Shown here one piece after another: positions 27,182 to 50,534 of a DNA stretch of 64,000 bases. The stretch covers positions 5,121 through 69,120 of the forward strand of contig DATDOV010000007.1 in assembly GCA_035293105.1 (NCBI GenBank), written 5' to 3'. Within the stretch, counting starts at the first letter, position 1, and each line of letters begins with the position of its first letter. Both the position numbers and the translations under genes were made by a program. Source of the DNA: Blastocatellia bacterium. Its GTDB lineage: Bacteria > Acidobacteriota > Blastocatellia > UBA7656. The notes under the pieces are model-generated. The model searched no databases. It saw only the letters and a list, made by a program, of their open reading frames with translations, and was not told the DNA's origin.

Positions 27182-27351
27182 ACTCAATCCACTCGCCCTG
27201 ACATGGCGTGTTCGGGCATCCTCCTCGTGCGCGTCAGCCCGTAAGACTTCAATTGGCGATAGAGCGTGCTCGGCGAGATTCCCAGAATCTCCGACGCTTT
27301 GCCCTGATGCCATCCCGTCTGTTCAAGCACGATGATTATCTGTTTCTTCTT
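27182..27351 (-). pseudogene. 170-bp copy of the 3' end (Fis-type HTH) of the sigma54 response regulator gene; putative attachment-site scar 1
   Basis: Aligns without gaps to 49126-49295 with 14 mismatches by hand count. Similarity ends 2 nt past the stop codon. Confidence 0.9.
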
Positions 27352-27441
27352 TGTTCCGCAAGCGACGGGACGTCCGCGGGACGTTCGCGCAGCGGCGATG
27401 CGTCACCTCCGTCCCGCCTCGTTCCCCGGAGCCATCAAGAT

Positions 27442-30400
27442 TCACCTGTTGGTCGCAGTCTTTCTGATGAGAAGCTGTCTGTCATCCTCCTTGATCACGC
27501 TGGCGAAGAATTTCTTGAATTCCTGGTACTCGTCGGGCGCGACAAGCGCCTTCTTATTGGTTACCTGCCTTCTCGCAGTGATGATGCCCTGTGAAAAGGT
27601 GAAGGTCAGCGAGTAATCCGCGACGGACGAAGTCAGGGTCACGTTGGATGGCATCTCTACGAGCTCGTAGCCGTTCGGCAACTTAACTACTACCTCTTCG
27701 ACTATCGTGTCCGCCCACGGCCAGTAGAAGAATGGGAACTTGCGGGACTCATATGACAACGCGGAGCTTGCTTCCAGACTTTCGACCCACGGGAGTTTCA
27801 GGAGCTTAAACTGGCCAGCCTCACCCACGTATGTCGGCACGACGAAATTGCACCTGAGTTTTACTTGTGGGGTGAGCTCATCAATCCCATCCAACTCCAA
27901 CCGGGTCAATTTAAGATTGGGGAACACAGTGCCCAGCCACTCGGTCGCTGTCTTCTCGCGCTCACTCTGGCCTTTGTTCCGGTACCCCTCGCGCAGACTG
28001 GCAGCAGTCGCGCCTTCGGCGACCACATCTTGCCGGACTGAAAGGCTGGAGTCCTCGAGTATGTCGGCTTTGGTTCGCCAGGTTATTCGCCGCGGAGCGA
28101 ACCCGTCGCACGGGATGTACGCCGGGGCCTTGACGCCCGGCTTGATCAACAAGGAAGAGGCGCCAAGGTCCGAGGTGGGTATGGCTCCGAATGGATAGTT
28201 GTAGGCGGTCAGGTCCAGGTACTTGAGCCCGGCGTCGGTCTCGACCGCGACGATGCAGTGGTTGAAAGGGATAGCCGGCAAAGCGTTCTTGTTGGCGCCC
28301 GCGTCCCGCGTGTTTACAAGGACGTAGTACGCCTTGATGCCGGCCTCAGCCAGCATCGCGATGCAAAGGGTCGCCAAGTCCTTGCAATCACCTATTTTGT
28401 TCACCAGGACGTCGCGCGCTTTCTGGGGCGCCAGTGCTGACTGGCGGAACGGGACGCTGCTGTACCTGATGTTTTCAGTTATGAAAGTGTAGATCACTTC
28501 GATCTTCCGTTCACTCGAGAGGTTCTCTTCGCCTTTTAACAACTCCTGCACCTGTTCTTTCACTTCATATGGGCGCTTGGTCTTGCTTCGAGCCAGATCG
28601 GAATACCAGTTCACGACGGTCTGCCAGTCGGCTACGCTCGAGATGTAGAGAACCTTGCCCACATCTTCCAGGGAGGGCATTGCGGCCTCGTATCGAATGG
28701 CGGGCTCGTCCGTTAACGCCCACTGGTAGAGCACGCCGTCTTCGGTTCGCCTCTGAAGGGGTTGCTCGGGCATGTTCTGCGCCTTCCACTGGAACTTAAA
28801 ATCCTCCGGCGCGAGCAGAGAGTACCTGATCGTCTTGGCCGGATAGTAATGGCTGAAATGGAAGGTGTCCCAAACGTGTTGCGATATGCTGCCGCTGTAC
28901 AGATTCTTGATGCTCCACTTCAGGTAGATGTGATCCGACTCTTCCAGTGCTTTAAACACGATGTGACTGGTATCAACATCGGCCTTCACCTCCGAACCAT
29001 CCTTCTTGATCACGACGGCTTTCTCAACGTTCAAGCTCTCGGTGTACGGACCGAAAGGGATCCAGTACTCTTTGAACTCGTCAATTCCGCTCTTGTTGAA
29101 AACCTTCACCAGCAACTCTGCGGAAGACTCGGAGGCGCCCCGATCATATACGACCCTCTTCTCGTCCCGCAGAAGCACAATTCCGCTATCCTCAGGATAG
29201 GCTTTTGCGTCCGGCGAATTCCTTATGAGTGCCGCAATGTCGGCGGTCTCGAACGGAGCGAAGACCGGCTTCTTGCCTTCGAGCTCCCGCAGCGCGCGCC
29301 TGGCATCGTAGTCGCGCGGATCATATGTCAGGGCTTCGCGGTACGCTTTTGCGGAGAGGCCATCCTGCTTCTTGATCCGATGAATCTCTCCGACCTTCGA
29401 CCAGAACGTCGAGTTGTTGGGACACAACTCGATGGCTTCCTTCAGCCTCTTTTCGGCGTTTTCGTACTGTTGAAGAGAATAATAGACGGCGGCCATTTGG
29501 AAGTGTGTCGTTGTCGATGCGGGGTCTATCTCGATGATCTTTCCCATGGTCTCCTGCCACTTTTTGATGTCCGACGCTTGCAGGTAGTAGTTTGCCAGAG
29601 TCGATAGCGCTGCCTCGCTGTACTCACGTCGAAGGTAATCTTCGATGACGGCTATCGCTCGGTCGTATTTGCGACTCGTCTGGAACTCGATGGCGCTCTG
29701 AATGTAGGCGAACGCAAAATTGCCCGGATATCGCGCATAAGACTCTCTCGCCAGCTCGATCAACTTATCGACCTGCTCCTTGTTGGCATAAAAGCCTAAC
29801 TGCATCTCATACGCCTGTTCGGACCCGGGCATCGCCTTCTCTACGCGGTTCATCAGCTCCTCAGCCTTATCATATTCCTCGTTTTGGAGATATTCGTTGA
29901 ACTTGTACTCAATTGCCTTGGGGACATTCGAGTCGATCGCGCATATCTTCTCGATCGTGGTCGCCGCCTCGTCGTGTTTCCTGCCGCTGAAGTATGCCTC
30001 GACCATTTGATGATGGAAAACTGCGCAGTTCGGATAGTACCTCAGCGCCTCACGCAGCACCGATTCCGCATCAGCGGCCTTGTCGTTTCGCAGATAACAG
30101 TCGGCAAGCAGCAGGTAGTTTTCGAAATGGTCCGGACTATCCTTGACTCTGGCCTTGAAGAAAGATTCTGCAAAGTTCTCCACCGGTCTGTTGGGTGCTC
30201 CGGGTCGCGACTTGTAGGGCTTTGCATCGGTGCCAAACTGCAATCCTCTGACAGGTTCGCCACGCTCGTCCGTTATGCGCGCCAGAAAGTTGCACAACCG
30301 AATCTCCGAATAACCGCACTTGATGAGCACCCTGTTCCATCCTTCTTGAAGCTCCGTAGAGACGATAAAGGTATCCAGATCGTTGTTTGTTTCCTCGTCA

Positions 30401-31215
30401 GATTCGATTATCAGCTCGTCGTTCAGAAAGACCTTAGTCGAGCCCGATGTGCCGATCCGGATCTGCACAGTCTGCTTCGCGGGCGAGAAGACGAAGTTGT
30501 TCGCATAGAAGACCGACCGAACCTGGGCGAAGTAACGAGTGAACTCAATCCAACGATCGTTCTTGACGGCCGCAAGCTTGAACCACTTCGCCGAAATGTC
30601 AGCTTTTCCCCGATAGGTCTTTGAAACATTGAACTCATTTTCGGGGGGAAATGCCTTCTCATGACCGGAAGCGGAGACGTTGTCAAAAGGACCGATCACG
30701 AGCCAATCCGTTATAGCGTTCATCTGGCTGTAATAATGGTTCGAGTTCGCCAAGTCGCCCCTCTGCTGGTAGTACTGGCCGAGCATCTCACATGCCATCG
30801 CTTTGAGGACGCCTGTCGAATCGGCGCTCTGGCTCAGCTTTTCGAGGAGCACAACCGCGCCGGAATCCGACTTCTTCAAGGCGGTTCGCATCCTCTCGGT
30901 CGACATCACCGCGTATACATAGGGATAATAATTCTGTTCGCCCTCCAAGACCCTCCTGAAGGCATTCCAGGATTCTTCATTCTTTCCCTGCAGTGAGTAG
31001 AGATATGCCAGCCCGAGGTTGGCGCGTATGTCAGCCGGGTTCTTTGTGACAGCGTCCAACAGTATCGTTTCAACCTGTTTTTGGTTGTTGTTCCCCCAGG
31101 CCTTCCACGCGTCTGCAACTGTTGAAGGGGATGATCCGGAAACCGTAAGGGGTCTCTGCGTGAAGCACAAAACGAGCAGGAAGCCCAGAACAAGTACTCT
31201 GCGTCGTATCATCAT
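27442..31215 (-). CDS. Secreted TPR + DUF3857 + transglutaminase-like protein
   Basis: Signal peptide, many TPR-like helices, transglutaminase-like triad segments 'GDCKDLATL', 'FNHCIVAV', 'YLDLT'. GAGGAGG RBS. Confidence 0.85.
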   Translation of the reverse strand: MMIRRRVLVLGFLLVLCFTQRPLTVSGSSPSTVADAWKAWGNNNQKQVETILLDAVTKNPADIRANLGLAYLYSLQGKNEESWNAFRRVLEGEQNYYPYVYAVMSTERMRTALKKSDSGAVVLLEKLSQSADSTGVLKAMACEMLGQYYQQRGDLANSNHYYSQMNAITDWLVIGPFDNVSASGHEKAFPPENEFNVSKTYRGKADISAKWFKLAAVKNDRWIEFTRYFAQVRSVFYANNFVFSPAKQTVQIRIGTSGSTKVFLNDELIIESDEETNNDLDTFIVSTELQEGWNRVLIKCGYSEIRLCNFLARITDERGEPVRGLQFGTDAKPYKSRPGAPNRPVENFAESFFKARVKDSPDHFENYLLLADCYLRNDKAADAESVLREALRYYPNCAVFHHQMVEAYFSGRKHDEAATTIEKICAIDSNVPKAIEYKFNEYLQNEEYDKAEELMNRVEKAMPGSEQAYEMQLGFYANKEQVDKLIELARESYARYPGNFAFAYIQSAIEFQTSRKYDRAIAVIEDYLRREYSEAALSTLANYYLQASDIKKWQETMGKIIEIDPASTTTHFQMAAVYYSLQQYENAEKRLKEAIELCPNNSTFWSKVGEIHRIKKQDGLSAKAYREALTYDPRDYDARRALRELEGKKPVFAPFETADIAALIRNSPDAKAYPEDSGIVLLRDEKRVVYDRGASESSAELLVKVFNKSGIDEFKEYWIPFGPYTESLNVEKAVVIKKDGSEVKADVDTSHIVFKALEESDHIYLKWSIKNLYSGSISQHVWDTFHFSHYYPAKTIRYSLLAPEDFKFQWKAQNMPEQPLQRRTEDGVLYQWALTDEPAIRYEAAMPSLEDVGKVLYISSVADWQTVVNWYSDLARSKTKRPYEVKEQVQELLKGEENLSSERKIEVIYTFITENIRYSSVPFRQSALAPQKARDVLVNKIGDCKDLATLCIAMLAEAGIKAYYVLVNTRDAGANKNALPAIPFNHCIVAVETDAGLKYLDLTAYNYPFGAIPTSDLGASSLLIKPGVKAPAYIPCDGFAPRRITWRTKADILEDSSLSVRQDVVAEGATAASLREGYRNKGQSEREKTATEWLGTVFPNLKLTRLELDGIDELTPQVKLRCNFVVPTYVGEAGQFKLLKLPWVESLEASSALSYESRKFPFFYWPWADTIVEEVVVKLPNGYELVEMPSNVTLTSSVADYSLTFTFSQGIITARRQVTNKKALVAPDEYQEFKKFFASVIKEDDRQLLIRKTATNR

Positions 31216-31472: not shown

Positions 31473-31868
31473 TATCAAGACCCGCTGTCAGTGGATGTGA
31501 ATGGCAACGTCGTAGGCAGCCAATAACACTTGGCTTTCGGTGAGGATTTCGCGGGTTCCGGCAGTTAGGAAAAACATCACTTCACATCATACGCACGGGA
31601 CGCTGACATTGGCACTGCTAACGCACCAAACGGGCAGTACGTGCCCACGACGGGTCGATTTCTGCGCGTTGATCCTCCCCTTGGCCGAGAGGGCGCAAGC
31701 CGGAATCGATGTAGTTATGTTCAGAACGATCCGATTGGGGCGACGGATCCGCTTGGGGTTACGAGTTGTCTTGCTTCTGACGCCGCAGACGAACCACTTT
31801 GCGGATACATCCATGTATGCGTCGACAATGCGCTCGACCAGAGTGCTCGATGCGCTCTCTGTGCATAG
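31473..31868 (+). pseudogene. Degenerate Rhs repeat-associated core fragment
   Basis: One frame reads YQDPLSVDVNGNVVGSQ*HLAFGEDFAGSGS*EKHHFTSYARD...GRFLRVDP...NRCSYVQNDPIGATDPLG, with stops at 31524 and 31566. Confidence 0.8.
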
Positions 31869-31921: not shown

Positions 31922-32255
31922 CTCAGTCCATATGCCCTGACATCGCGTGTTCGGGCATTCTCCTCGTCCGCGTCAGACCGTAAGACTTCAACTGGCGATA
32001 GAGTCGTGCTCGGCGAGATTCCCAGAATCTCCGACGCCTTGCCTTGCCATCCCGTCTGTTCCAGCACGTTGATTATCTGTTTTTTCTTCAGTTCATCAAG
32101 ACTCCCCGGCTGATGGTCGTCGCCGTTATTCGAAGCCGGACTCAGCCGCACATTGGTCCTCAACTCGATCGGCAGATCGTCCGGCGTGATCTCCTCGCTC
32201 GACGCCAGGATCACCGCGCGCTCGATCGGGTTCCTAAGCTCGCGCGTTGCCCGGC
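31922..32255 (-). pseudogene. 334-bp copy of the 3' end of the sigma54 response regulator gene; putative attachment-site scar 2
   Basis: Aligns to 49127-49464 with +1, -3 and -2 nt indels. Encodes 'ELRNPIERAVILASSEEITPDDLP...GISPST'. Confidence 0.9.
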
Positions 32256-32475
32256 GTTGACGTTCAAGCCTCACTACCGACCGAGTTTCCGCCTTGTGAG
32301 GATAGCGCGATCCGGGTCGTGAGATCGAAGTGGCAAACAGATACTGCTGTATTTAATGCGCGAGACCGAAAGATTGAAGCCGGTCTTGGCGGCCCACACA
32401 AGCTTCGCAAGTCTTGGCACCACCGACCACCGGGACCTTCGATGGCTTCTCGAGTTGCGGACTCATCATCACAGG

Positions 32476-32553
32476 TTAGTTCTTGAGGCGTGCGTCAAAG
32501 AACTTGATCGTCGGCTCGAGGAACGCGGGATCAACTTCTCGCCCTGACCCTGG
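32476..32553 (-). pseudogene. 3' fragment of an alpha/beta hydrolase gene paralogous to 40133-41197
   Basis: Reads PGSGREVDPAFLEPTIKFFDARLKN* versus PGSGREVDPAFFEPTIKFFDGRLRKLMR*. Confidence 0.8.
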
Positions 32554-32649: not shown

Positions 32650-35600
32650 ATGACCCCGGAACGGTGGCAACAAATCGAGCAGGTGTTTCAATCGGCGCTG
32701 GCGCGTGAGCCGGAGCAGCGCGGCGCCTTTTTAACCGACGCCTGCGCCGGCGACGAGGCCCTGCGTGACAAAGTCGAGGCGATGCTTCAGGCGCACGAGC
32801 AGGCGGGAAGTTTCCTCCGGGCTCCAGTGGCTGAGGTGGCGGCGGAGTTGATAGCCCAAGAGGACGCTCGATGGGCGGTAGGGGCCACCATCGGCCCCTA
32901 CCAGATCGTGCGCCAGTTGGGCGCGGGCGGGATGGGCGATGTTTACCTGGCCCGGGATAACCGGCTCGGGCGCAGCGCGGCGTTGAAAGTGCTGCCTGAC
33001 TATTTCACCAACGACAAAGACCGAATGCGACGCTTCCATCAGGAGGCGCGGGCGGCGTCGGCGTTGAGTCATCCGAACGTGGCCACGATCTATGACATCG
33101 GAAAAGCGGAGGGGACCACGTACATCGCGATGGAATATGTCGAGGGACAGACGCTGGAGGCCAAGATCAACGGGCAACCGCTGGAAACCACTGAAATCCT
33201 TGACATCGCCGCGCAGGTAGCCGACGCCTTGGATGAAGCGCACGCCAAAGGCATCGCGCACCGGGACATCAAACCCTCGAACATCATGATCACGCCTCGC
33301 GGTCAAGCGAAGGTGCTGGACTTTGGACTGGCGAAGATGACCCGACGCGAGGAGCAGAGGATTGGAAGCGACATCTCCATCCAAACGGAAACCGAACCGG
33401 GTGTGGTGATGGGCACGGTGGCGTACATGAGCCCGGAGCAGGCATTGGGGCATGAGGTGGACGACCGCACCGACCTCTTCAGCTTGGGCGTGGTGACGTA
33501 TGAGATGACCACGGGCCGACGGCCATTCGCCGGGACCACCACTGGCGAGACACTCGATCAAGTCATCCACGCGGAACCAGAGGCGATTGCGCGATTGAAC
33601 GCGCGCGCGCCCGCCAAGTTGGAGCGCATTATAGGCAGGTGCCTGGAGAAGGACCGGGAGCGGCGCTATCAGTCAGCGCACGAGCTACTGACTGATTTGA
33701 GGAATCTCAAGCGCGATCTGGACTCAGGCGAGCGCGCCGCCCGCCCGACCGCCAGCGCGGAGTATCTTCTCAGCCAGATCAAACATCATGCGCGTGGTGC
33801 GCTCATCACAGTGGTCGCGCTCGTCATCGCCGCTGCCCTGTTCTTCTACTTCCCCCGCGCGCCGGTGTTGACCGAGCAGGATACGATTCTGCTGGCCGAT
33901 TTCGTAAACACGACCGGCGATCCGGCATTTGACGGCACACTCAAACAGGGCTTGGCGGTGCACTTGGGACAGACCCCGTTTTTGAATATCTTCCCTGACG
34001 AGCGCGTACGCGAGGCATTGCGCTTGATGGGCCGCCCGGCTGATGAGCACCTGACGCGGGACGTCGGCCGCGAGATCTGCCAGCGGCAGGGACTCAAGGC
34101 GATGATTGTCGGCTCGATTGCCAGCCTCGGGAGTCGCTATGTGCTGACGCTGGAGGCCGTCAACGCGCAGACCGGAGAGGTGATGGCGCGCCAACAGACC
34201 GAAGCTGCTTCCAAAGAGCAGGTCTTGCAGTCGCTGGGGCAGGCCGCCTCCGCGTTGCGCCCGAAGCTGGGCGAATCGCTCCGATCGATTCAGAAGTTCG
34301 ACATCCAGCTTGCCCAGGCGACGACCTCATCGCTGGAGGCGCTCAAAGCCTATTCGCTGGGAGGGGAGAGATTCGGGAGTTACCTTGAAGCCATACCGTT
34401 TTTTGAACGCGCGACAGAGTTGGATCCGAATTTCGCGCTCGCCTACAGCGTACTATCAGATCTCTACAGCAATACCGGCCAAGCAGAGCGGGCGGCTACG
34501 GCTGCGGAGAAAGCCTTTGCTTTGCGGGAGCGCGTGACGGAGCGCGAAAAGTTCCGCATCGCCGGCACCTACTACTTATATGCGACCGGAGAAATAGACA
34601 AGGCCATCGAAACGTTCGAAGTGTGGAAGCAGGTCTATCCGCGAGACACTGTCCCGACCGGTGCTCTGGCTATGTGGTACCTCCCAATCGGGAAATTCGA
34701 GAAGGCAGTGGACGAGGCGCGCGAGGCCATGCGCCTCACTCCGAATTACAATCCCCGTTTTTATCTGTCGTCTGCTCTCTATCGTCTCAATCGTTTCGAC
34801 GAGGCCAAAGCGACGATTGAGGAGATGTTTCAGCAGAAGCGTGACAATATGCTCTTGCACATCAACCGCTATTTCATAGCTTCTATTCAGGGTGACACCG
34901 CCGCGATGAGGCAACAGCTTGATTGGCTGGAAAGCCATTCGAGCGAGTACCGGTCGCTCCACCTGCAAAGCAGGACAGCGGCGAGCGCGGGCCAGTTGCG
35001 CCAGGCGCGACGTTTCTCGCGCCAAGCTGTAGAGTTGGCGGTCCGGCGTAATTTCAAAGACCTGGCCGCTTTTTTTGTGGCCGCTCAGATGGTGAATGAA
35101 GCAAGCTGTGGTTTGTGCGAGCAAGCCAGACAGAGGGCACAGGCTCTGGCACTCTCGCGGGCTAGTTTTGTGCAGGGCTACATTCCAATGCTCCCGAGTG
35201 TGGCCTACGCGCTGGCTTTGTGCGGTGACATCACCGAGGCGCAGAAGTTGGTCGACGAGCTGGCGAGGCGGTATCCGAAAGCCACGTTGGTGAACGCCAT
35301 CTACCTGCCGGTAATTCGCGCGGCGATCGAACTCCAGCGCGGGAACGCCGAGCAGGCGATTCAATCATTGGAAGTGGTGACTCCATATGAGGGCGCGTGC
35401 TGGTTGATGCCCCCCTATCTGCGCGGCCAAGCCTATCTGCGCAAGCGGGCAGGGACGGAAGCAGCAGCCGAGTTCCAAAAGATTCTCGATCACCGGGGCT
35501 GGGATCTCTATTCTTCTTGGTATGTGCTTGCGCATCTGGGGCTGGCGCGGGCGGCGGCGCTCACGGGCGACCGTGTCAAAAGCCGCCAAGCATATCAAGA

Positions 35601-36570: not shown

Positions 36571-36619
36571 AGCCTCTTCTCCTTTCAATGCTTTAGTTGC
36601 TGCCTCGGTTGAGGAGTTC

Positions 36620-41288: not shown

Positions 41289-42908
41289 TCACAGGCGGCT
41301 GACCGTAACTCCGCCAAAGACGACAGGGTTATTGAACTGAAGAGTCAGTCTCATCGAGACGGCGCGCATGCCGAATACAATTTCGGCGGGCCCCGGCCCC
41401 TCGTCCCTGAACGGCTTAATGGTGCAGAGACCAACCAGACCGGACTTATCTGTTGTCGGGGCAAGAGTCAGCTTTACATATTCCTCCTTCCCGGCCGTGT
41501 TAACGTATGTCACCAACGCAACTAGATTCACCGGAAAATACTCCGAGATGCTAGACCAAAGGGAGCTGGCCTGGACAGCAATCAGATACTGCCCCCCGCC
41601 CGGAGGCAACTCTGCATACAGATAAACCTGCCCTTCGTTACCGAGGAGAAGCACATCTTTCTGCAACATTAGGTTCAACGAATTCTTGGTGGTCATAAAG
41701 ATGCCGCCAGCATTCGTATTTCCCGCAGCGTAACCGGTCTGGCCCTGCTGGTACATGGGTCCCGGCTTGGTTGGGGAGAAGTGGACCGGGGCGCTCCAAA
41801 TCTCCGACAGCGTCTTACCTGCTCCAAAGGCAGAAGGGACTGTATTCCCGACCGGCGTCCCATCCAGGCTCTCTGTCTTCAACTGGGCCAATTGCCTTCC
41901 CGCACTGGCAGCGGCGCTTTCGAGTGAGGCCTTAGTCGCGGGATTGCCCAAGAGCGAGTCGAGCATCGTCGTTCGTGTGGGCGGGGTCGTCACCTGATTC
42001 AGCACAGCAGCAGATGGGGTGGGGAACTGACCCAGCTTTCCCGCTTCGGGCATCGGGATCGGTATTGGCGTTGCGGCGGGGCTCTTTGGATTGGGGATGT
42101 TAATGGGCGTTGCGGCTGATCCGCCTGCCGGCGTCGCCAGGGATATTCGGGACAAGACCACTCCGTTTTCCCACTCAATGCGATTGGCTTTGCCGTTTGG
42201 GTCAATCCCTACTCCGCCCTGGGCTGATCCAGAACCTGTGTTGCCGGTCCAGCTCGCAGTGATGTTCTGCCCCTTGAGCGTCCCGCTCCCCTTCTCATTT
42301 ATCGCTGCCACGTACCAGATGAACTGCTCTCCGTTCTGCGTGATCTCATAGACCTGCCCCGTCGTGCTCGTCCACTTGCCTGAAATGTCTATTACGCCCT
42401 TTGGCACAGCCGGCCCAATTGAGCCGGGCGGTGCCACTTTTGCGGTCGGGTCGGTTTGCACAATCGGCGGAGTGGGGGCAGTGGGGCTGGAGGCGCTGCC
42501 CGTCTTCCTGAAGAAGACTACGCCGTTGTCCCACTCAATCCGAGTTGCCGCTCCTGAAGAATCAACCTCGGTGATGTTTCCTTTAGCCGAGCCTGAGCCG
42601 CCCGGGTCAGTCCACGAAGCGCTAATGCCGCTCTGTGACAGAGTGCCGCTGCCCTTCTGGTTGATCTTGGCCGCAAACCAGGTAAACTGGTTTCCGCTCT
42701 GGGTGATCTCATAGTCAACGCCGATATTGCTGCTCCATTTTCCTGAAATGTCACGGACCTGTCCCGCCGCAAGCTCAGTCGGCAGAAACGTCTTTGCAGA
42801 GCTGCTGCCGCACAGGTAGCTGCCCGCAAGCAGATAAATCGCGCAAGCCGCAATCACGGCGAGCATCGGCCTGCTTCTTGCAATCGTTTTCGTGATGCGA
42901 TTTAACAT
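41289..42908 (-). CDS. Secreted modular protein with two ~82-aa 'DISGKW' modules and Pro-rich linkers
   Basis: AGAAAGGAGGTGA RBS and signal peptide. Modules at 42507-42752 and 42147-42389. Confidence 0.75.
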   Translation of the reverse strand: MLNRITKTIARSRPMLAVIAACAIYLLAGSYLCGSSSAKTFLPTELAAGQVRDISGKWSSNIGVDYEITQSGNQFTWFAAKINQKGSGTLSQSGISASWTDPGGSGSAKGNITEVDSSGAATRIEWDNGVVFFRKTGSASSPTAPTPPIVQTDPTAKVAPPGSIGPAVPKGVIDISGKWTSTTGQVYEITQNGEQFIWYVAAINEKGSGTLKGQNITASWTGNTGSGSAQGGVGIDPNGKANRIEWENGVVLSRISLATPAGGSAATPINIPNPKSPAATPIPIPMPEAGKLGQFPTPSAAVLNQVTTPPTRTTMLDSLLGNPATKASLESAAASAGRQLAQLKTESLDGTPVGNTVPSAFGAGKTLSEIWSAPVHFSPTKPGPMYQQGQTGYAAGNTNAGGIFMTTKNSLNLMLQKDVLLLGNEGQVYLYAELPPGGGQYLIAVQASSLWSSISEYFPVNLVALVTYVNTAGKEEYVKLTLAPTTDKSGLVGLCTIKPFRDEGPGPAEIVFGMRAVSMRLTLQFNNPVVFGGVTVSRL

Positions 42909-42996
42909 GACGTCACCTCCTTTCTGAGGATCTGAATTGAAAACCTCGCTGGCAGAACAACCCCGTCCGCATCGAGTCGCGACGTTACACGGCTGG

Positions 42997-44461
42997 CTAC
43001 CTGAAGAAGGTCACCCGTTATCCCAATCAATGCGAATCGCTCTGCCATTGGCGTTTACCCCAGTGATCTTTCCTTTAGCTGAACCTGAGCCGCCCGGGCC
43101 AGACCACGAAGCGGTGAGGCCATTCCCCGTTAATGTGCCGCTGCCCATCTGGTCTTGGCCGCGTTCCAGCTAAACTGGTTCCCGCTCTGAGTGATCTCGT
43201 AGGCCACCCCTATAGACCTGTCCCATTTGCCTGAGATGTCAGGCAGGGAGGGCTTCACGGGACCTGGTCCGGCTTCACCGGGTGCCTGTCCCGCTTGAGG
43301 CGACCTGACGCCTGAGACGCAATCCTTATTCGGGACGGCGTTGGGGATACTGTATTTCAGATAGCAGCGCGCCTGTGGCCCCTGCACCCCTGCGCGAACA
43401 TAGGTGAAGGCCTTGCAGTCTACGTCGGCTTCGCAGGCATAGCGGCAATCTTCGGGTCCGCCGCTCACCCAGAAGCTCTTGTAGTCGAGACCGGGCCGGT
43501 CCGTGTTGTCTTCTAATCCCCCTGCCATAGGTCTGACCCCTACGACTTTCGGAGGCGCAGGACCGGCAGGCTTAGCCGCTCCAGCTTGCCAGGAGGGCTG
43601 TCCGGCAGGGGCGGCACCTCCGACCTTTGGCGGAGGTGGAGGTGGAGGCCCGGTCCATCGGATCTCGAGAGAGGATGCCATCTCGTCCCAGCCGTACTTG
43701 TTCAACTCGTACCACGCCGCTGAAGGACCACCTGCCCCAGGCAAGGTAATGCACTTGCCGGCGCAGCCGGTTTCGTCGCAAAGCGTCACCGCTATGTTCT
43801 TGTGAGATGGGTGCACCCATTCGGACTCGTTGTCGATGAAGTCAGGGATCGTTGGGTACTTTATCTCAGTTGCAAACAACGATTCGGGCAGGGGGAAGAA
43901 CGCGCCGTTGTACAATTCATGCGCGAGGAATACGCCAAGTGGTTCTCCAGCATCCTTGCTAAATACTATCAGAGACGAACAATTGTCATTCTCCCCGGAA
44001 ACTGGCAAATCCTTGTTGGAAGCCAGATGCGGCTTGGCGTAAGCACCGATGAAATGAGGATGCTGGAAAAGAATAACGCCTACTCGTTCGCCGACCTGGA
44101 TGGAAGAGATCCTGTCGTTCATATTCAAAGCGGCCCCGATGCCGCCGACGACGGCTGGCGTCGAGCCAGCCTGGCCGGCGGGTTTGTCGTCCGTTACCGC
44201 TGATAAATCGGGCACCAGCCGCTGCCTCATCCACGACGGATCGAGGCGGAAGGAAACGTGCACGCCAACGAAGTCCGAATGCTCGTAGACGATCACCTCA
44301 TAAGGGTCAACAGTCTTCGGATAATTAATCTGTGAGCTGGCCGCGCTGCCGGGCGCATAGCTCCCGCCAAGCAGCCACAAACTGAGGCACGCCGCAATGG
44401 CCAGCCCCCGCATGAGGCTCGTCTTCGCTCTGCTCTTTTTCATAACCAACTGATAAGCCAT
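42997..44461 (-). pseudogene. Secreted beta/gamma-crystallin-like + PAN/apple + 'DISGKW' module protein; last module frameshifted (translated ORF ends at 43130)
   Basis: Crystallin-like 'VIVYEHSDFVG...MNDRISSIQV'. PAN-like 'NTDRPGLDY...CRYACEADVDCKAFTY...CYLK...CVSG'. A 4-nt deletion near 43150 and a 1-nt deletion near 43013 relative to the intact modules. Confidence 0.7.
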
Positions 44462-44892: not shown

Positions 44893-47169
44893 TCACGGGA
44901 TGTAGTTGAGGGCCTCCGGCAGTGGATCGGCCATAGGCACGTGGAAGAACCGTGCCGGTTCAGGGTGGATAACCATCTTGCCCTTGGAAGCGAAAAAGAC
45001 CGCAATCTGCTGCTGAGCGCCAAGGGAGACCGCACCGAACATGGTGAACAGCGGCATGAAGGAGTGCGGGTCCTTCCGCAACGCGGGGTTTTCGGCAAAG
45101 GCGAGATCGTGCCGGTAGCACGTGGCGCGGTCAGTCAAGTCACCGGCGCGCAGCAATGCCGTCGTCGCCGGGTTAGGCACGCTTTGGTCACCTTTAGCGA
45201 ACTGAACGATCACCGACTTGGCGGGCACGCCGGCGAGTGGAGCTTTCCGGAGGTGCGGCGCGTATGCGACCGGAGTGCCCGACTGCATGACCCACTCCAG
45301 CTTTTCGAAGAAATCCTGGATCTCGATCGCTCCGGCGACCGTGTTGATCATCGGCGACTGAATAAGGGAGATGGTTCCGTCAGCCAGACGGACGGCCAGC
45401 GGCATGCCGTTCCTGAGCGGTATGTTCTCGTTGAATTGAGGAGGTGCGACGGCAACTCCCTCAATGTAGGTGATCCCTGGCGAGTTGATCAACGACGGGG
45501 TTCGCGTGGCTAGCAAACGGCCATTGATAATCCGGTTGCCGGGGGAAAACAGGAGATTCGCGGCTGGGCCGCCGGCGACGGTGAGGACTCCGGCCCGAAC
45601 ATTCGGCTCGACGGCGAGGAAGAGCGTGCCGTAGAAGCCGCCCATCGAGAATCCAACATAGTAAATACGGGAGGGTTTCAGGTCCCGTAGTCCGTCTCCG
45701 TCCACGTCCATACCGACCTTGATAACACGGACGAGTTGCATGAGGTCTGCAACGGTCTGCCGCAGACCGTCGCCCGTAGAGATGATCGCCCGCGGCCGGG
45801 CAGTCTGGAGGCCCTCGCTGGCGCCGATTTCGCCGTTGCCGTCCTGGTTAATGCCGCGCCCGCCAGCGGGGAATGTCACCGAAACGCCGTTGCTCTCGTT
45901 GACCGTCAGCGTCCCCAGCGGGCCTCTGCCGTGCCCGACGGCGTTGATCCCGATGGTGGCGATGCCCTGCGCCGCCATCGAAGCGGCAACATGGTTTAGG
46001 CTCAAGAAGCCGTCCTTGCTGAGAGTGACACCATGACCGTAGATCGCTATGGGCCATCCACCCGGAGGCATCGCGCCTGAAGGCAAGAACAGATTAAAGT
46101 AAATCTCGTTCACCCCTTGCACGGCTGGCACGCCAGTGCGTGTGTCCACTGGCGGAATGAACTCCCCAGGATGTACCTCATAGTCGGGTGAGAGGTACTT
46201 CCCGAAGGCAACCTGTCCCACTGCACCGGGGATGTTCCGCGGTAATGACACATCGACCGGGACTGCGGTGAACTTGGGCGGGTTGTCACCCGTCTGCTGG
46301 TTCCACGTGATGCCATTGACCTGATCGAGCGGAAAGACCGTCCGGCTCCCGCCGGGTCCCAGGTTGAAATCGGCGGGAGCAGGGGTAGCCGCCTTGATCT
46401 GATCCCGGATCTTCTCCAGGATGGCTGTCGCGCTATGCGTGGTGAACACACTGGCGCTGACGACCTCGCTCTTGGGCACGCCCGCTCTCCGCGCCGCGCC
46501 GAGAGCTTGGAGCAACCTCTTCCGATATTTTTTCAAGCCAGGATCGCCCGGCTGGCCTTCGCTGAGTTCTTGCCGGAATCGCTCAAACGCTTCGCTCGCC
46601 TCAACTGATGAACCATTCTGATCCTGCACGCCGCGGGTAACGATCAGCCCGTAGCGCGTATGCTGGTCCAGGAGTTCGTCCGACTCGACGTGAAGCGTGT
46701 TCGTCGCCGGGTCCCACACTACCTGATTGATGCCGATACGGCGGCCGCCCAGGTCATTGGGATCGAGCATGTCACCCAGGCTAACGAGAAAGACTGTCTG
46801 GCTAGTGACTGAGTTAACGTCGATCGGTCCGTCAAACGGAATGGAGAGTCGCGGCTGCAGATTGAACCCGTCCAGCGTGTTAATGACGTCCAGGTCTTCG
46901 CAGTCCGACGTCCGTTGGGAGCAGTCCGGCTTTGGCAGGTTGACCCTAAGCCCGGTGTTTTGACTCGGATCACGCACAGTGAACCGGTCGGCCGGAAAGG
47001 GACCTCCTGCAGGGGCGTCAAGATTGAACAGAGCGTGGATGGAGCTATCGTTAGAAGCTCTACCCTTAAAGAATGAAGCAGTAGTCAGGAGTAAGACGGC
47101 CGCCGACACCGCCAGGCAGCGGACGGTTAAACCCCTCAAGCTAATTGTTCGCAAACTTATCTCTCGCAT
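44893..47169 (-). CDS. Secreted Ig-like-domain + alpha/beta hydrolase (extracellular lipase-like) protein
   Basis: Signal peptide, 'GPFPADRFT', 'IYGHG', nucleophile 'GFSMGG', 'FAKGDQSVPN', 'DPHSF'. GGAGG RBS. Confidence 0.8.
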   Translation of the reverse strand: MREISLRTISLRGLTVRCLAVSAAVLLLTTASFFKGRASNDSSIHALFNLDAPAGGPFPADRFTVRDPSQNTGLRVNLPKPDCSQRTSDCEDLDVINTLDGFNLQPRLSIPFDGPIDVNSVTSQTVFLVSLGDMLDPNDLGGRRIGINQVVWDPATNTLHVESDELLDQHTRYGLIVTRGVQDQNGSSVEASEAFERFRQELSEGQPGDPGLKKYRKRLLQALGAARRAGVPKSEVVSASVFTTHSATAILEKIRDQIKAATPAPADFNLGPGGSRTVFPLDQVNGITWNQQTGDNPPKFTAVPVDVSLPRNIPGAVGQVAFGKYLSPDYEVHPGEFIPPVDTRTGVPAVQGVNEIYFNLFLPSGAMPPGGWPIAIYGHGVTLSKDGFLSLNHVAASMAAQGIATIGINAVGHGRGPLGTLTVNESNGVSVTFPAGGRGINQDGNGEIGASEGLQTARPRAIISTGDGLRQTVADLMQLVRVIKVGMDVDGDGLRDLKPSRIYYVGFSMGGFYGTLFLAVEPNVRAGVLTVAGGPAANLLFSPGNRIINGRLLATRTPSLINSPGITYIEGVAVAPPQFNENIPLRNGMPLAVRLADGTISLIQSPMINTVAGAIEIQDFFEKLEWVMQSGTPVAYAPHLRKAPLAGVPAKSVIVQFAKGDQSVPNPATTALLRAGDLTDRATCYRHDLAFAENPALRKDPHSFMPLFTMFGAVSLGAQQQIAVFFASKGKMVIHPEPARFFHVPMADPLPEALNYIP

Positions 47170-48172: not shown

Positions 48173-48772
48173 ATGACGAAACCATCGCCAGGAGAAATAA
48201 CTCAGCTGCTCATCGACTGGAGCCGGGGAGACCAAACGGCGCTGGACCAGTTGATGCCTTTGGTGTATGACGAGCTGCGCCGGCTGGCTCATCGGTACAT
48301 GCGCCGCGAGCGACCGGGCCACACGCTGCAAACGACGGCGCTGGTCAACGAGGTCTATATCCGGCTCATCGATCAGACGAAAGCGAATTGGCAGAATCGG
48401 GTCCAGTTCCTGGCCGTCTGCGCCATGTTGATGCGTCGCATCCTGGTCACGTACGCCCAGCGCCGGCGCTCTGCCAAGCGCGAGGGCCAGACGCTCCTGG
48501 TGTCGCTGGACGAAGCGGCGGTGGTATCCAAGGCGCGAGCGGCGGAAGTGATCGCCTTGGATGAGGCGCTGATGAGCCTGGAAGCCATCGACCCAAGAAA
48601 AAGCCGGATCGTGGAGCTGCGGTTCTTCGGCGGACTCACCATCGAAGAGACGGCGGAGGCCCTGCACGTGTCACATGCCACAGTCGAGCGCGAGTGGAAC
48701 ACGGCGCGGGCCTGGCTCTACTGCGAGATGACGCAGGGAGGGATGAGCGAGGGACTCCCCCGCGGGGTATAG
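48173..48772 (+). CDS. ECF sigma factor, kinase-associated type (ECF43 / TIGR02999-like)
   Basis: 'LMPLVYDELRRLA...HTLQTTALVNEVYIRL', 'SRIVELRFFGGLTIEETAEAL', 'REWNTARAWL'. Confidence 0.92.
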   Translation: MTKPSPGEITQLLIDWSRGDQTALDQLMPLVYDELRRLAHRYMRRERPGHTLQTTALVNEVYIRLIDQTKANWQNRVQFLAVCAMLMRRILVTYAQRRRSAKREGQTLLVSLDEAAVVSKARAAEVIALDEALMSLEAIDPRKSRIVELRFFGGLTIEETAEALHVSHATVEREWNTARAWLYCEMTQGGMSEGLPRGV

Positions 48773-49127
48773 CCGGTGCAGAACCGATCCCCAACCAGTT
48801 CAGCCTCTCTATTCGAATAGCGTGCGCAGTGTGGGATATCGCTTTGACGGCTAAAGCGCAAGCAACACTCAAAAGACGTCAAGCTGAAGCTTGTACTGTG
48901 TACTCCTGGCGACTGCCGCAAGGATGACGCAAACTTCACACGATCCTGATGGTTCTCTTATTTGCGCCAAACATGTAAGAACAATACGTTAAGCGAGACC
49001 GTTGAGGTCTACAAGCAGAACGCAATCTGGCTTCGCTCAAACAGCGGAGTGTGAGCTTCCCCGCCCGTGCCGCCCAGTTACTTCATTGTATACACATCTC
49101 GGCAGGAGAGCTCTGACGTCACGCCAC

Positions 49128-50534
49128 TCAATCCATCTGCCCTGACATCGCGTGTTCCGGCATCCTCCTCGTCCGCGTAAGCCCATAAGACTTCAACTGG
49201 CGATAGAGCGTGCTTGGCGATATGCCGAGAATCTCCGACGCTTTGCCCTGATGCCATCCCGTCTGTTCAAGCACGTTGATTATCTGTTTCTTCTTCAGCT
49301 CATCGAGGCTTCCCGGCTGATGGTCGTCGCCATTATTCGAAGCCGGACTCAGCCGCACATTGGTCCTCAACTCGATCGGCAGATCGTCCGGCGTGATCTC
49401 CTCGCTCGACGCCAGGATCACCGCGCGCTCGATCACGTTCCTAAGCTCGCGGACGTTGCCCGGCCACGAGTAGTTCATCAACACCTGCATTGCGTCCGGG
49501 TTCAACCACGCGCGGGTCCCGCCTTCGACTCGCGCCAGAAAATGGTCCGCCAGCGAAGGGATGTCCTCGGGACGTTCGCGCAGGGACGGCAGTTTTATCG
49601 TGAAGTTGTTGATGCGGAAGAGCAGGTCCGAACGGAACCGGCCCTCGGCCGCAAACTGATCGAGTTCGCGATTCGTCGCCGCGATGACTCGCACGTCAAC
49701 CTCGACCTTCTTCGTGCCCCCGACGCGGAAGAACGACCGGGTCTCGAGCACGCGCAGCAGCTTCGATTGCAGCGTCAGGCTCATCTCGCCGATCTCATCC
49801 ATGAACAACGTCCCGCCATTGGCCAGTTCCATCAATCCGAGCTTCCGCTTGCGAGCGCCGGTGAATGCCCCCTGTTCATACCCAAACAACTCGGACTCCA
49901 AAAGCGTGTCCTGAATCGCGGCGCAGCTTATGTCGATGAACGGCCCGGCGTGGCGGTTCGAGAACAAGTGGATCGTATTGGCGACCAGTTCCTTGCCGGT
50001 TCCCGATTCCCCGGCAATGAGAACGAGCGCCGATGACGGGGCGACCTTCCTGACCATCGACATGACCTCGACCATCTTCTGGCTGCGGACGATGATCTCG
50101 GGCGCCTTCTCCTTGTAGGTCAGCCGCGACTGGAGAATTAGGTTCTCGTTTCTCAACTGCCGCTTCTCATACGCCTTGGTGAGAATCGCCTCGAGCTCGC
50201 GAATGTGGCACGGTTTGGTGAGGTAATCGTAGGCGCCGAGCTTCATGGCTTGAAGCGCGGTCTCGACCGTGGCGTGCCCGGTCATCATCAGCACTTCAGG
50301 CGGTTGCTCGTGCTTGCGCAGTTCGCGCAGCGCTTCGATGCCCCCGACCACCGGCATCATTATGTCGAGCAGCGCGACGTCGAACTCGTTCTCTCGAGCA
50401 ACGCGCAATGCCGCCTCGCCGTCGTGGACGAGGGTTACCTGATGTCCGAGCCGCGAGAGTTCTTTTTGAAGGACGATACCGAGGTTCTTCTCGTCCTCAG
50501 CTATAAGCAGTTTCATGCTTGGGTTTGGATTCAC
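49128..50534 (-). CDS. Sigma54-dependent response regulator (NtrC/AtoC family)
   Basis: Receiver 'LLDIMMP', 'GESGTGKE', 'GAFTGA', 'FMDEIGE', 'WPGNVRELRNVIER', C-terminal HTH. GTG start overlaps the kinase stop (GTGA). Confidence 0.96.
   Translation of the reverse strand: MNPNPSMKLLIAEDEKNLGIVLQKELSRLGHQVTLVHDGEAALRVARENEFDVALLDIMMPVVGGIEALRELRKHEQPPEVLMMTGHATVETALQAMKLGAYDYLTKPCHIRELEAILTKAYEKRQLRNENLILQSRLTYKEKAPEIIVRSQKMVEVMSMVRKVAPSSALVLIAGESGTGKELVANTIHLFSNRHAGPFIDISCAAIQDTLLESELFGYEQGAFTGARKRKLGLMELANGGTLFMDEIGEMSLTLQSKLLRVLETRSFFRVGGTKKVEVDVRVIAATNRELDQFAAEGRFRSDLLFRINNFTIKLPSLRERPEDIPSLADHFLARVEGGTRAWLNPDAMQVLMNYSWPGNVRELRNVIERAVILASSEEITPDDLPIELRTNVRLSPASNNGDDHQPGSLDELKKKQIINVLEQTGWHQGKASEILGISPSTLYRQLKSYGLTRTRRMPEHAMSGQMD

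What the first reader, a model, noticed from the sequence alone, without database searches (positions are those of the whole stretch)
27182..49464. A sigma54 response-regulator gene serves as a repeated insertion site: three copies of its 3' end frame two tandem islands with no integrase
Seen: the intact gene ends at 49128. Same-strand copies of its 3' end lie downstream at 31922-32255 (334 bp) and 27182-27351 (170 bp). In both, similarity stops 1-2 nt after the stop codon. By hand count the 170-bp copy has 14 mismatches, 10 of them synonymous, and the two fragments share seven synonymous states absent from the intact gene. Established: islands that integrate into a gene carry a replacement 3' end and displace the old one to their far side, usually at tRNA/tmRNA genes and with an integrase next to the site. 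Inference: two successive insertions (about 17 kb and 4.6 kb) each swapped in a foreign allele of the HTH-coding end. Mostly synonymous divergence means the fragments were once functional gene ends. Different fragment lengths and no visible recombinase point to homology-driven additive integration or a trans-acting enzyme. A side effect would be exchange of the regulator's DNA-binding helix.
Basis: partly seen in the sequence, partly recalled or inferred. Interest (0 to 1): 0.85.

Follow-up and report, generated by a model that had tools for sequence, protein, structure and literature searches.

The report
Stacked displaced gene ends, no integrase
Downstream of a conserved regulator gene in an uncultured soil acidobacterium, accessory DNA was added several times, each time with a fresh working copy of a gene's end that pushed the old end aside, and no integrase gene is present.

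Summary
The sigma54 response-regulator gene (49128-50534, minus strand) has two same-strand copies of its 3' end, at 31922-32255 and 27182-27392, and nowhere else in the genome. Three independent MEGAHIT assemblies reproduce the structure.

The fragments were once working gene ends. All 20 substitutions between the intact end and fragment 2 are at third codon positions. The fragments now carry indels or a ~247-nt deletion.

- The same "intact gene, then displaced 3' end" pattern recurs for a lipase-like gene and an esterase gene inside the larger island.
- Six 3'-end relics lie in the 25 kb between the S9 peptidase genes and the regulator.
- The regulator's stop codon is also the breakpoint of an inversion-type rearrangement. 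In 10 of 11 related genera the regulator is followed by an HtrA protease gene, not by the S9 peptidase region.
- Only the last 205 nt of fragment 2 is a diverged allele. The 102 nt before it are identical to the intact gene.
- The HTH protein sequence is unchanged.

No tyrosine or serine recombinase lies on the contig. The best explanation is recombinase-free, homology-driven additive integration, but the mechanism is inferred. One contig that lacks the 17-kb island may be an assembly mis-join.

The parts
50531..53197 (-). Sensor histidine kinase (partial receiver domain, GAF x2, PAS, HisKA, HATPase_c). Core gene upstream of the regulator.
   Evidence: Pfam. The HK-RR pair is conserved in all related genera examined.
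49128..50534 (-). Intact sigma54-dependent response regulator, 468 aa (receiver, AAA+ sigma54-interaction domain, Fis-type HTH). It is the anchor gene.
   Evidence: Pfam and NCBIfam NtrC/AtoC-like matches. Single-copy ortholog at 74-82% aa identity in the family. Closest outside the species among 5.8 billion proteins is 83%.
49127..49464 (-). Copy A, the working 3' end. 49333-49434 is identical to copy A'. 49128-49332 is the diverged allele that encodes the linker and the HTH.
48976..49075 (+). Relic B: the last ~25 codons, frameshifted, of a gene like 36530-37060. It lies 51 nt from the regulator's stop.
   Evidence: 77% identical to 36988-37091. Translation matches KNNxLSExV...ERNLASLK.
48173..48772 (+). 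ECF sigma factor (PF07638 / TIGR02999) at the right end of the 17-kb segment, without its usual kinase partner.
   Evidence: In 10 of the 11 closest loci in relatives a Ser/Thr kinase gene follows directly; where longer stretches were read, its start overlaps or abuts the sigma-factor stop.
44893..47169 (-). Lipase-like secreted protein (Lipase_bact_N, Big_5), intact. Its last 376 nt plus 3 nt form copy C (44890-45268).
   Evidence: Pfam. Repeat. Absent from 23 of 24 relatives.
40133..44461 (-). Nested insert: PAN-domain protein (43130-44461), unnamed repeat protein (41289-42908) and BD-FAE esterase (40133-41227).
   Evidence: Pfam. Bounded by C (44890) and C' (40126).
39748..40126 (-). Copy C': displaced 3' end of the lipase-like gene. 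The frame is open and there are no indels. It starts 7 nt after the esterase stop codon.
   Evidence: 91% over 379 nt, E 4e-151. 20 of 34 mismatches are at third positions. Similarity ends 3 nt after the stop.
36530..39617 (.). Cargo: small TPR-like ORF (36530-37060, +), ORF 37071-37667 (-), and OmpR-type winged-helix plus TPR regulator (37713-39617, +).
   Evidence: Pfam.
32650..35682 (+). Ser/Thr protein kinase with TPR, at the left end of the 17-kb segment, without its usual ECF partner upstream.
   Evidence: Pfam. 49-53% identical in the kinase domain to the kinases that directly follow ECF genes in relatives. No partner relic at either end.
32467..32553 (-). Relic D': the last ~30 codons of a BD-FAE esterase paralog.
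   Evidence: 82% over 74 nt to 40146-40219. Translation ...GSGREVDPAFLEPTIKFFDARLKN*.
31922..32255 (-). Copy A' (fragment 2): displaced regulator 3' end with a 2-bp deletion, a 3-bp deletion and a 1-bp insertion.
   Evidence: Pfam AAA_lid_14 and HTH_8 on its ORF.
31473..31868 (+). 5'-truncated Rhs relic (core-domain end plus a short C-terminal tip, one in-frame stop) that converges on copy A'.
   Evidence: TIGR03696 Rhs_assc_core, 44.7 bits against a cut-off of 32.5. Translation.
27442..31215 (-). Cargo of the 4.6-kb segment: 1257-aa protein with TPR, DUF3857, transglutaminase-core and DUF3858 domains.
   Evidence: Pfam. Absent from 12 of 12 relatives.
27182..27392 (-). Copy A'' (fragment 1): the oldest displaced regulator end. 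Two pieces (27182-27351 and 27352-27392) are joined by a ~247-nt deletion.
24067..26559 (+). S9 dipeptidyl-peptidase (S9b), an accessory gene at the left edge of the flexible segment.
   Evidence: Pfam. Present in 3 of 12 relatives, in unrelated contexts.
21992..24094 (+). S9 peptidase (S9a), the last gene of the conserved dacB...MFS...S9a block. It marks the other side of the rearrangement junction.
   Evidence: Synteny with G016 and G013.

Best explanation
Shown. The 25 kb between S9a and the regulator's stop codon (window 24095-49127) is a lineage-specific flexible segment. It sits at an inversion-type rearrangement junction that separated the regulator from its ancestral neighbour, an HtrA protease gene.

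Inferred. The segment grew by at least four additive insertions. Each incoming piece carried a working copy of the 3' end of the gene it entered, so that gene stayed intact while its old end was pushed downstream and decayed. The order would be:
1. The regulator with end A'' lay next to S9b.
2. A 4.6-kb piece (end A', Rhs relic, TPR-transglutaminase gene) entered.
3. A piece of about 12 kb (end A, relic B, ECF, lipase-like gene, regulators, kinase, relic D') entered.
4. A 4.8-kb piece (lipase end C, PAN protein, repeat protein, esterase) entered the lipase-like gene inside piece 3.

Most likely mechanism (inferred). The host's own homologous recombination did the work. A circular, non-replicating DNA from a close relative, carrying only a partial copy of the gene, recombines once with the chromosomal gene (Campbell-type integration). 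That duplicates the shared stretch on both sides of the cargo. This is the 'insertion with long target duplication' topology, and it needs no element-encoded integrase. Recombination between the two copies can later delete the cargo or release it as a circle.
For: Reality of the structure.

The fragments were once functional ends.
- All 20 A/A' substitutions are at third codon positions (p 3e-10).
- All 8 changes private to fragment 2 are at third positions (p 1.5e-4).
- 11 of 14 for A'' and 20 of 34 for the lipase copy are at third positions.
- Plain duplication followed by decay would spread changes evenly over codon positions.

Recombination mosaic. There are 0 substitutions in 102 nt next to 20 in 205 nt (p about 3e-5).

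No dedicated enzyme.
- The genome holds four tyrosine-recombinase matches and one serine-recombinase match, none on this contig. The search reads through stop codons.
- No recombinase domain was found in any ORF tested.
- There are no tRNA or Rfam hits.

Against one site-specific core.
- The 5' edges of the displaced ends differ: at least 456 nt against 337 nt from the stop.
- Three different genes show the same pattern within 25 kb.

Cargo is accessory. The ancestral neighbour lies elsewhere.

Hint of a circular form. The ECF sigma factor and the Ser/Thr kinase are adjacent in 10 of the 11 closest loci in relatives and in the genome's own paralog. Here they sit at opposite ends of the 17-kb segment, both on the plus strand, so a circle would put ECF upstream of the kinase.

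Genome-wide. Other fragment/intact pairs with third-position divergence occur as a 3' fragment downstream or a 5' fragment upstream of the intact gene. These are the two non-disruptive Campbell outcomes.

Precedent. Furuta et al. 2010 (PMC2853133) list restriction-modification inserts flanked by direct repeats of about 46-423 bp, after excluding cases with annotated mobility genes, mostly in naturally competent species. A comEC homolog is present here; this is weak support because the gene is widespread.
Against: - No donor, no circle and no clean empty site has been seen.
- Every contig found in public data belongs to one clone, at least 99.9% identical. The closest other regulator is 83% identical. 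The order and direction of events therefore rest on geometry alone.
- Homology-driven integration does not by itself explain why the copies stop matching 1-3 nt after the stop codon in the regulator (three contexts) and in the lipase-like gene. That precision is what a long-lived site-specific element with a selected replacement end would show.
- Across the circle junction the ECF and kinase genes would still be about 1.1 kb apart, about 750 nt of it outside the regulator-end copy. Neither end keeps a relic of a partner.
- Relics B and the Rhs piece are 3' ends of plus-strand genes, and this scheme does not explain them.
- Third-position bias also fits truncated resident paralogs.
Confidence: 0.5

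Rival explanations
1. Site-specific integrative elements. Islands or prophages of the e14/phage-21-at-icd type each carried a replacement gene end and an integrase. They integrated in tandem (accretion) and then lost their integration and transfer genes, becoming cis-mobilisable remnants. Alternatively they rely on an integrase encoded elsewhere.
For: - The architecture matches e14 at icd/icdC: an intact gene whose end comes from the element, and a displaced C-terminal pseudogene at the far side (PMC13626634).
- The boundary within 1-3 nt of the stop codon fits a replacement end kept by selection.
- The 102-nt identical block near the 5' edge of fragment 2 could hold a core.
Against: - No integrase, relic, or conjugation or phage gene lies in either segment or anywhere on the contig.
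- The 5' edges of the two displaced regulator ends differ, and the longest stretch identical in all three copies is 15 nt.
- The same pattern in three different genes within 25 kb would need three or four different elements that all lost their integrases.
- The whole genome has only about two candidate integrases beyond the two Xer-sized recombinases.
Confidence: 0.2
2. Linear DNA taken up from a close relative was joined by homologous recombination in the conserved gene on one side and by an illegitimate join on the other (homology-facilitated illegitimate recombination). No circle was involved.
For: - A conserved core gene borders non-shared DNA.
- The 5' edges of the fragments fall at arbitrary positions: 337, 376 and at least 456 nt from the stop.
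- There is no recombinase. comEC is present.
Against: From my own knowledge of the published cases, this route normally replaces or deletes recipient DNA between the anchor and the illegitimate join. It does not duplicate the recipient's gene end. It also does not explain the boundary at the stop codon.
Confidence: 0.12
3. No horizontal transfer. The regulator (and the lipase-like and esterase genes) were duplicated locally and kept as working paralogs for a time. Deletions then truncated them at the 5' side, and gene conversion made the identical block.
For: - Third-position divergence only requires that both copies were once functional.
- The genome has other truncated near-paralog pairs with the same bias.
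- The region is a rearrangement hot spot.
Against: - The regulator is single-copy in all 40 relatives searched; the next best hits are at most 46% identical.
- This would need three redundant regulators with identical HTH kept long enough to diverge at 28% of third positions, followed by two independent 5' truncations.
- Segmental duplicates should share flanking DNA, yet the flanks after the stop codons are unrelated.
- All six relics are 3' ends (two-sided p 0.03). Random deletions should also leave 5' ends.
Confidence: 0.12
4. Assembly artefact: alleles from co-occurring strains were strung together by the assembler.
For: The genome is a short-read metagenome bin of 101 contigs. One JGI contig (L046) does join the copies differently.
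Against: - The same order was recovered in three separately assembled samples, at 99.9-100% identity across every junction.
- Logan contigs from a further run break exactly inside the repeats, as expected for true repeats.
- The longest shared exact stretch is 102 nt, below k=141.
- The fragments carry indels and an internal deletion, so they are relics and not live alleles.
Confidence: 0.03

Closest known systems
e14 element and phage 21 in the E. coli icd gene, with the icdC pseudogene (Hill et al. 1989, as cited in PMC13626634; the phage 21 part is from my own knowledge)
   Same: - The insert sits in the 3' end of a protein-coding gene and brings a replacement end.
- The native end survives as a C-terminal pseudogene at the far side.
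- For e14 the published end-replacement differences are nearly silent: parallel synonymous changes in icd, and a modelled icd-icdC chimera with two D-to-E substitutions and a short duplicated C-terminal stretch (PMC13626634). Here the differences are mostly synonymous.
- Recombination between the two copies removes the insert and leaves a chimeric gene, as contig L046 would if it is real.
   Different: e14 encodes its own integrase and excises site-specifically. Here no recombinase or phage gene is present, there are two stacked displaced ends with different 5' edges, and the same pattern is nested in two cargo genes.
Insertion with long target duplication (Nobusato et al. 2000; Furuta, Abe and Kobayashi 2010, PMC2853133)
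   Same: Cargo is flanked by long direct repeats (about 46-423 bp in the paper's tables, 170-380 bp here). [quoted passage not shown]
   Different: - The published cases carry restriction-modification genes, and the listed repeats are about 93-98% identical.
- Here the cargo is regulatory and secreted-protein genes.
- The repeats are gene ends that stop at the stop codon.
- They differ by allele-like, selection-shaped divergence.
- The events are stacked and nested.
Tandem accretion of ICE/IME and cis-mobilisable elements (CIME) at the 3' end of a gene, for example fda in Streptococcus thermophilus (Pavlovic et al. 2004; reviewed in PMC5704250)
   Same: [quoted passage not shown]
   Different: CIMEs derive from elements with a shared integrase specificity and one short identical att core. 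Here no ICE or IME remnant is visible and the copy edges differ.
Orphan C-terminal modules of Rhs, CDI and T6SS toxin genes (displacement model; from my own knowledge)
   Same: Serial displacement of old 3' ends downstream of an intact gene, by recombination in the conserved part. This genome has such Rhs arrays on contig C50, and an Rhs relic lies inside this locus.
   Different: In toxin loci the displaced tips encode different proteins, each with an immunity gene. Here the displaced ends encode almost the same protein, so nothing is gained in the anchor gene itself.

Membership tests
Integrase-borne island or prophage in the 3' end of a protein-coding gene (e14/phage 21 type) | Direct repeats made of the target gene's 3' end at both boundaries of the insert | tested here: met
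   A/A' and A'/A'' frame the 17.2-kb and 4.6-kb segments; C/C' frames the 4.8-kb one.
Integrase-borne island or prophage in the 3' end of a protein-coding gene (e14/phage 21 type) | The end next to the insert restores a full-length working gene | tested here: met
   The regulator is 468 aa with a complete HTH_8. The lipase-like gene is 758 aa and open.
Integrase-borne island or prophage in the 3' end of a protein-coding gene (e14/phage 21 type) | A tyrosine or serine recombinase gene inside the insert, usually next to an att site | tested here: not met
   PF00589 and PF00239 searched in six frames with read-through give no match on contig C7. Pfam on island ORFs shows none.
Integrase-borne island or prophage in the 3' end of a protein-coding gene (e14/phage 21 type) | An empty site (single gene end, no insert) in related genomes | tested here: inconclusive
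   L046 joins the regulator to the 4.6-kb segment, but it switches copy inside the identical block, carries the frameshift, and comes from a sample that also holds the island. Other genera have a different downstream gene.
CIME / tandem accretion at one att site | All copies share one short identical core at the same position, which sets the 5' edge of every displaced end | tested here: not met
   The 5' edges lie at least 456 nt (A'') and 337 nt (A') from the stop. The longest stretch identical in all three copies is 15 nt.
CIME / tandem accretion at one att site | Remnants of integration, conjugation or mobilisation genes from the parent ICE or IME | tested here: not met
   No such domain was found in any ORF tested. 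Intergenic zones have no paralogs elsewhere in the genome by tblastx.
Insertion with long target duplication | Insert flanked by long direct repeats (tens to hundreds of bp), with no mobility gene | tested here: met
   Repeats are 170-379 nt at 91-92%. No recombinase is present.
Insertion with long target duplication | Both repeats align to one single-copy target in a genome that lacks the insert | tested here: inconclusive
   Relatives have a single regulator gene, but no close strain without the inserts is available. L046 is ambiguous.
Rhs/CDI-type orphan-module displacement | The displaced 3' ends encode variable protein tips, each with its own downstream partner gene | tested here: not met
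   The regulator ends differ almost only at synonymous sites, and the recognition helix is unchanged.
Diversity-generating retroelement (template/variable repeat at a gene's 3' end) | Mismatches confined to adenines of one copy, and a reverse transcriptase nearby | tested here: not met
   Mismatches are of all kinds (T/C, A/G, C/G, G/T). No RT domain is present in the ORFs tested.

The most novel reading that the evidence does not exclude
Bacteria may have a general, recombinase-free way of adding gene cassettes. Circular DNA that carries only a piece of a conserved gene would be integrated by RecA at that gene, keeping it intact and leaving a trail of displaced but once-functional gene ends. 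The cargo could later leave again as a circle by recombination between the copies. In that reading this locus is a four-layer record of the process, and the 17-kb layer would place an ECF sigma factor upstream of its kinase again when circular. A trans-acting enzyme that cuts at stop-codon-proximal sites cannot be excluded either.
Probability: 0.3. Interest if true: 0.65.

Novelty: new variant of a known kind. Interest (0 to 1): 0.45.

Why it matters
Tools that find genomic islands rely on integrases and on tRNA or short att repeats, so segments like these go unseen. If ordinary homologous recombination can stack accessory genes behind any conserved gene while keeping that gene intact, part of the flexible genome of slow-growing soil bacteria could move without mobile-element machinery.

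The displaced ends would then be a dated, layered record of past acquisitions. They also carry alleles of relatives that have never been sequenced.

For this organism, the events and the linked rearrangement cut a conserved kinase-regulator-HtrA arrangement. They placed a new set of regulators and secreted proteins behind the regulator gene.

Tried and rejected
Circle, deletion and linkage junctions remain untested.
- Closer relatives. The best regulator outside the clone among 5.8 billion proteins is 83% identical. All cluster members and their contigs are the same clone. One 51-aa cluster member on a eukaryote-like contig (L047) has no DNA similarity to the window and was dropped.
- A regulator relic at the reciprocal junction on contig C69: none found by tblastn or blastn.
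- Regulator-end fragments downstream of the regulator in 15 loci from related genera: none.
- tRNA, tmRNA or Rfam elements as insertion targets: none.
- Hidden homology in the flanks after the stop codons: none above shuffled sequence.
- GC3 as a sign of a foreign end: the three alleles are alike, 0.69-0.71.
- Polarising the seven shared sites with 19 orthologs: mixed (4 favour the fragments as ancestral, 2 the intact end, 1 tie). Third positions are saturated.
- Relics of a kinase start after the ECF gene, or of an ECF end before the kinase gene: none.
- Context of S9b orthologs in three relatives: unrelated, with no regulator nearby.
- A contiguous lipase-ECF-kinase-regulator module in relatives: only the ECF-kinase pair is conserved.
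- Diversity-generating retroelement, silent-cassette antigenic variation and retro-copy readings were considered and dropped. The mismatches are not adenine-specific, the encoded protein does not vary, and similarity stops at the stop codon rather than at a transcript end.

Full report
**What is there.** The window is contig C7:5121-69120 of a 6.45-Mb, 101-contig genome. The source names its relatives Blastocatellia, in the Acidobacteriota. A sensor kinase gene (50531-53197) and an NtrC-type sigma54 response-regulator gene (49128-50534) lie on the minus strand.

Self-comparison finds two further same-strand copies of the regulator's 3' end:
- 31922-32255 matches 49127-49464 (339 columns, 92%, E 8e-135).
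- 27182-27351 matches 49126-49295 (170 nt, 14 mismatches, E 9e-65).
- 27352-27392 continues the second copy as a match to 49543-49583. This copy is therefore a relic that reaches at least 456 nt into the gene and has lost about 247 nt internally.

These are the only close copies in the genome. In all three, similarity ends 1-2 nt after the TGA stop. The next 60 nt are no more alike than shuffled sequence.

**Is it an assembly error?** Contig names show MEGAHIT with k=141. The longest exact stretch shared by any two copies is 102 nt, so each copy is crossed by k-mers that are unique to it.
- Separately assembled samples give contigs that span the junctions at 99.9-100% identity. L051 and L052 cross both fragments. 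L049 and L050 cross the intact end. L049 and L051 cross the lipase fragment.
- Logan contigs from another run end inside the fragments, at 27302, 32034 and 32198, as expected at true repeats.
- The fragments also carry indels and a deletion.

I put an artefact at about 3%.

**The fragments were working gene ends.** I use positions in the last 459 nt of the gene. Fragment 2 against the intact end shows:
- a 2-bp deletion and a GT-to-CC change near its 5' edge;
- then no difference at all over 102 nt (49333-49434);
- then 20 substitutions in the last 205 nt, all at third codon positions, 19 of them synonymous;
- plus a 3-bp deletion and a 1-bp insertion that shifts the frame inside the HTH.

Twenty of twenty at third positions has p = 3e-10. 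No change in 102 nt at that density has p of about 3e-5. Fragment 1 has 11 of 14 changes at third positions (p 7e-4).

All eight changes private to fragment 2 are also at third positions (p 1.5e-4). The fragment's own lineage therefore evolved as coding sequence, and it acquired its indels only later. The three ends are about equally distant from one another. Polarising with 19 orthologs gave a mixed result. At the protein level the recognition helix is the same in all three, so no DNA-binding specificity was exchanged.

The same pattern is nested inside the 17-kb segment.
- The last 376 nt (plus 3 nt) of the lipase-like gene (44893-47169) recur at 39748-40126. Identity is 91% with no indels, and 20 of 34 changes are at third positions. 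This copy begins 7 nt after the stop of the BD-FAE esterase gene.
- The last ~30 codons of a BD-FAE paralog lie at about 32467-32553, just upstream of fragment 2.
- 48976-49075 is a frameshifted relic of the end of a gene like 36530-37060.
- An earlier scan note pointed to an Rhs relic at 31473-31868. I confirmed it with TIGR03696 (44.7 bits against a cut-off of 32.5).

Six relics therefore lie in 25 kb, and all are 3' ends (two-sided p 0.03).

**Wider context.** The regulator is a single-copy core gene with 74-82% identical orthologs across the family.
- In 10 of 11 loci from other genera it is followed within about 1.5 kb by a roughly 510-aa Trypsin_2 plus two-PDZ (HtrA/DegP-type) gene, and then by a conserved block. 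In this genome these lie on contig C69, at 7880-9520 and beyond.
- The window's left side (dacB, Ig-repeat protein, HIT, GDPD, MFS, rhodanese, S9a) is a conserved block that lies far from the regulator in G016 and G013.
- In G013, S9a is followed by orthologs of the STAS and phosphofructokinase genes. In this genome those two genes sit right next to the HtrA gene on C69.

The two ancestral loci have thus exchanged partners. The regulator now lies tail-to-tail with S9a, and the HtrA gene lies head-to-head with the STAS gene. This is the signature of an inversion with one breakpoint at the regulator's stop codon. The reciprocal junction rests on one relative.

The 25 kb between S9a and the regulator is accessory. 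S9b occurs in 3 of 12 relatives, in other contexts. The TPR-transglutaminase gene occurs in none of 12. The lipase-like gene is absent from 23 of 24.

**The one contig without the 17-kb segment.** JGI contig L046 (7015 bp) runs from the kinase through the regulator straight into the TPR-transglutaminase gene.
- It is identical to the window on both sides.
- It follows the intact copy at the 5' edge of the repeat, switches somewhere in the 102-nt identical block, and then follows fragment 2, including its frameshift.
- Its regulator is 480 aa, and no HTH_8 is listed among its precomputed Pfam hits.
- The same JGI sample also holds L062, a contig that starts inside that block and continues into ECF and the lipase-like gene at 100% identity.

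L046 is therefore either a real deletion by recombination between the repeats, as happens between icd and icdC when e14 leaves (PMC13626634), or an assembler's wrong turn at a repeat node. It is not a clean ancestral allele. I lean slightly towards a mis-join, because none of the k=141 assemblies produced this hybrid protein.

**Recombinases.** Six-frame searches that read through stops find four tyrosine-recombinase matches in the genome. Two are of Xer size, one lies at a contig end, and one is a fragment. There is one serine-recombinase match. None is on C7. No recombinase, transposase, phage or conjugation domain appears in the ORFs tested. The intergenic zones have no paralogs elsewhere in the genome.

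**Mechanism.** A plain local duplication followed by decay is contradicted by the third-position pattern, the mosaic and the unrelated flanks.

A site-specific element explains the exact stop-codon boundary. It must, however, assume three or four elements with different targets or cores, all of which lost their integrases, inside 25 kb.

A single homologous crossover between the chromosome and a circular DNA carrying a partial gene copy gives exactly the topology seen: intact gene, then cargo, then fragment. In that model:
- the two copies differ wherever the two alleles differ, wherever the crossover falls;
- fragment lengths are set by the length of the piece on the circle;
- no enzyme beyond RecA is needed.

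The same logic predicts that only 3'-fragment-downstream and 5'-fragment-upstream outcomes survive. These are the commonest classes among other fragment/intact pairs in this genome.

A hint of a circular form comes from the ECF sigma factor and the Ser/Thr kinase. The kinase gene follows directly in 10 of the 11 closest loci in relatives, with its start overlapping or abutting the ECF stop where I read longer stretches, and the two are also adjacent in the genome's own paralog. Here they sit at opposite ends of the 17-kb segment in the orientation a circle would restore. They would still be about 1.1 kb apart across that junction, and neither keeps a partner relic, so this is suggestive only.

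Insertion with long target duplication, without mobility genes, has been described for restriction-modification units (PMC2853133). That is the nearest published kind.

I give the homology-driven reading 0.5. The rivals are the decayed site-specific reading at 0.2, one-sided homologous plus illegitimate joining at 0.12, local paralogs at 0.12 and an artefact at 0.03. The stop-codon precision remains unexplained under my preferred reading.

**Verdict.** The locus is a stacked, nested record of gene-end displacement without an integrase, at a rearrangement breakpoint. The mechanism is inferred, not shown.

Earlier notes of this scan report similar integrase-less displaced ends in other phyla. 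I did not test those, and they are not independent support.

Noticed in passing
window 31473-31868 (+): 5'-truncated Rhs relic: a complete Rhs-associated core domain (TIGR03696, 44.7 bits) with one in-frame stop and a ~37-codon tip. It converges on regulator fragment 2, and no rhs gene body is nearby.
   Followed up: yes
window 47801-48119: Large imperfect palindrome (arms about 47817-47870 and 48050-48103) in the divergent spacer between the lipase-like gene and the ECF sigma-factor gene. It may be a shared regulatory region.
   Followed up: no
window 16353-19100 (-): A 915-aa AAA_11/AAA_12 superfamily-1 helicase gene sits between the GDPD and MFS genes. In G016 and G013 those two genes are adjacent, so this is a separate single-gene insertion in the conserved left block.
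   Followed up: partly
window 41289-42908 (-) and L049: The unnamed repeat protein has internal repeats of about 360-490 nt (42277-43241). It is 539 aa here but 526 aa in a contig from another sample, so its repeat number varies within the population.
   Followed up: no
L064 (JGI 3300025160), matching window 47015-44783: A contig from another metagenome carries the lipase-like gene with a 49-nt deletion that splits it into two ORFs. Otherwise there is 1 mismatch in 2.2 kb.
   Followed up: no
genome contig C50:1500-18600 (outside the window): Array of six Rhs core ends with repeats of about 0.6-1.5 kb at 81-87% identity. This is a typical main rhs gene followed by orphan C-terminal modules, the classical form of 3'-end displacement in the same genome.
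   Followed up: partly
genome contig C69:3144-3284 and 3900-4040 (outside the window): Another displaced 3' end. The last 141 nt of a 403-aa gene, starting exactly at its stop codon, recur 756 nt downstream at 87% identity, with 12 of 20 mismatches at third positions. Similar pairs occur on C66, C20, C60 and C15.
   Followed up: partly
window 49128-53197 and genome contig C69:7880-9520: Kinase, sigma54 regulator and HtrA-type protease form a conserved gene order across about ten genera of the family. This suggests the regulator controls the protease gene. This genome has broken that link.
   Followed up: partly
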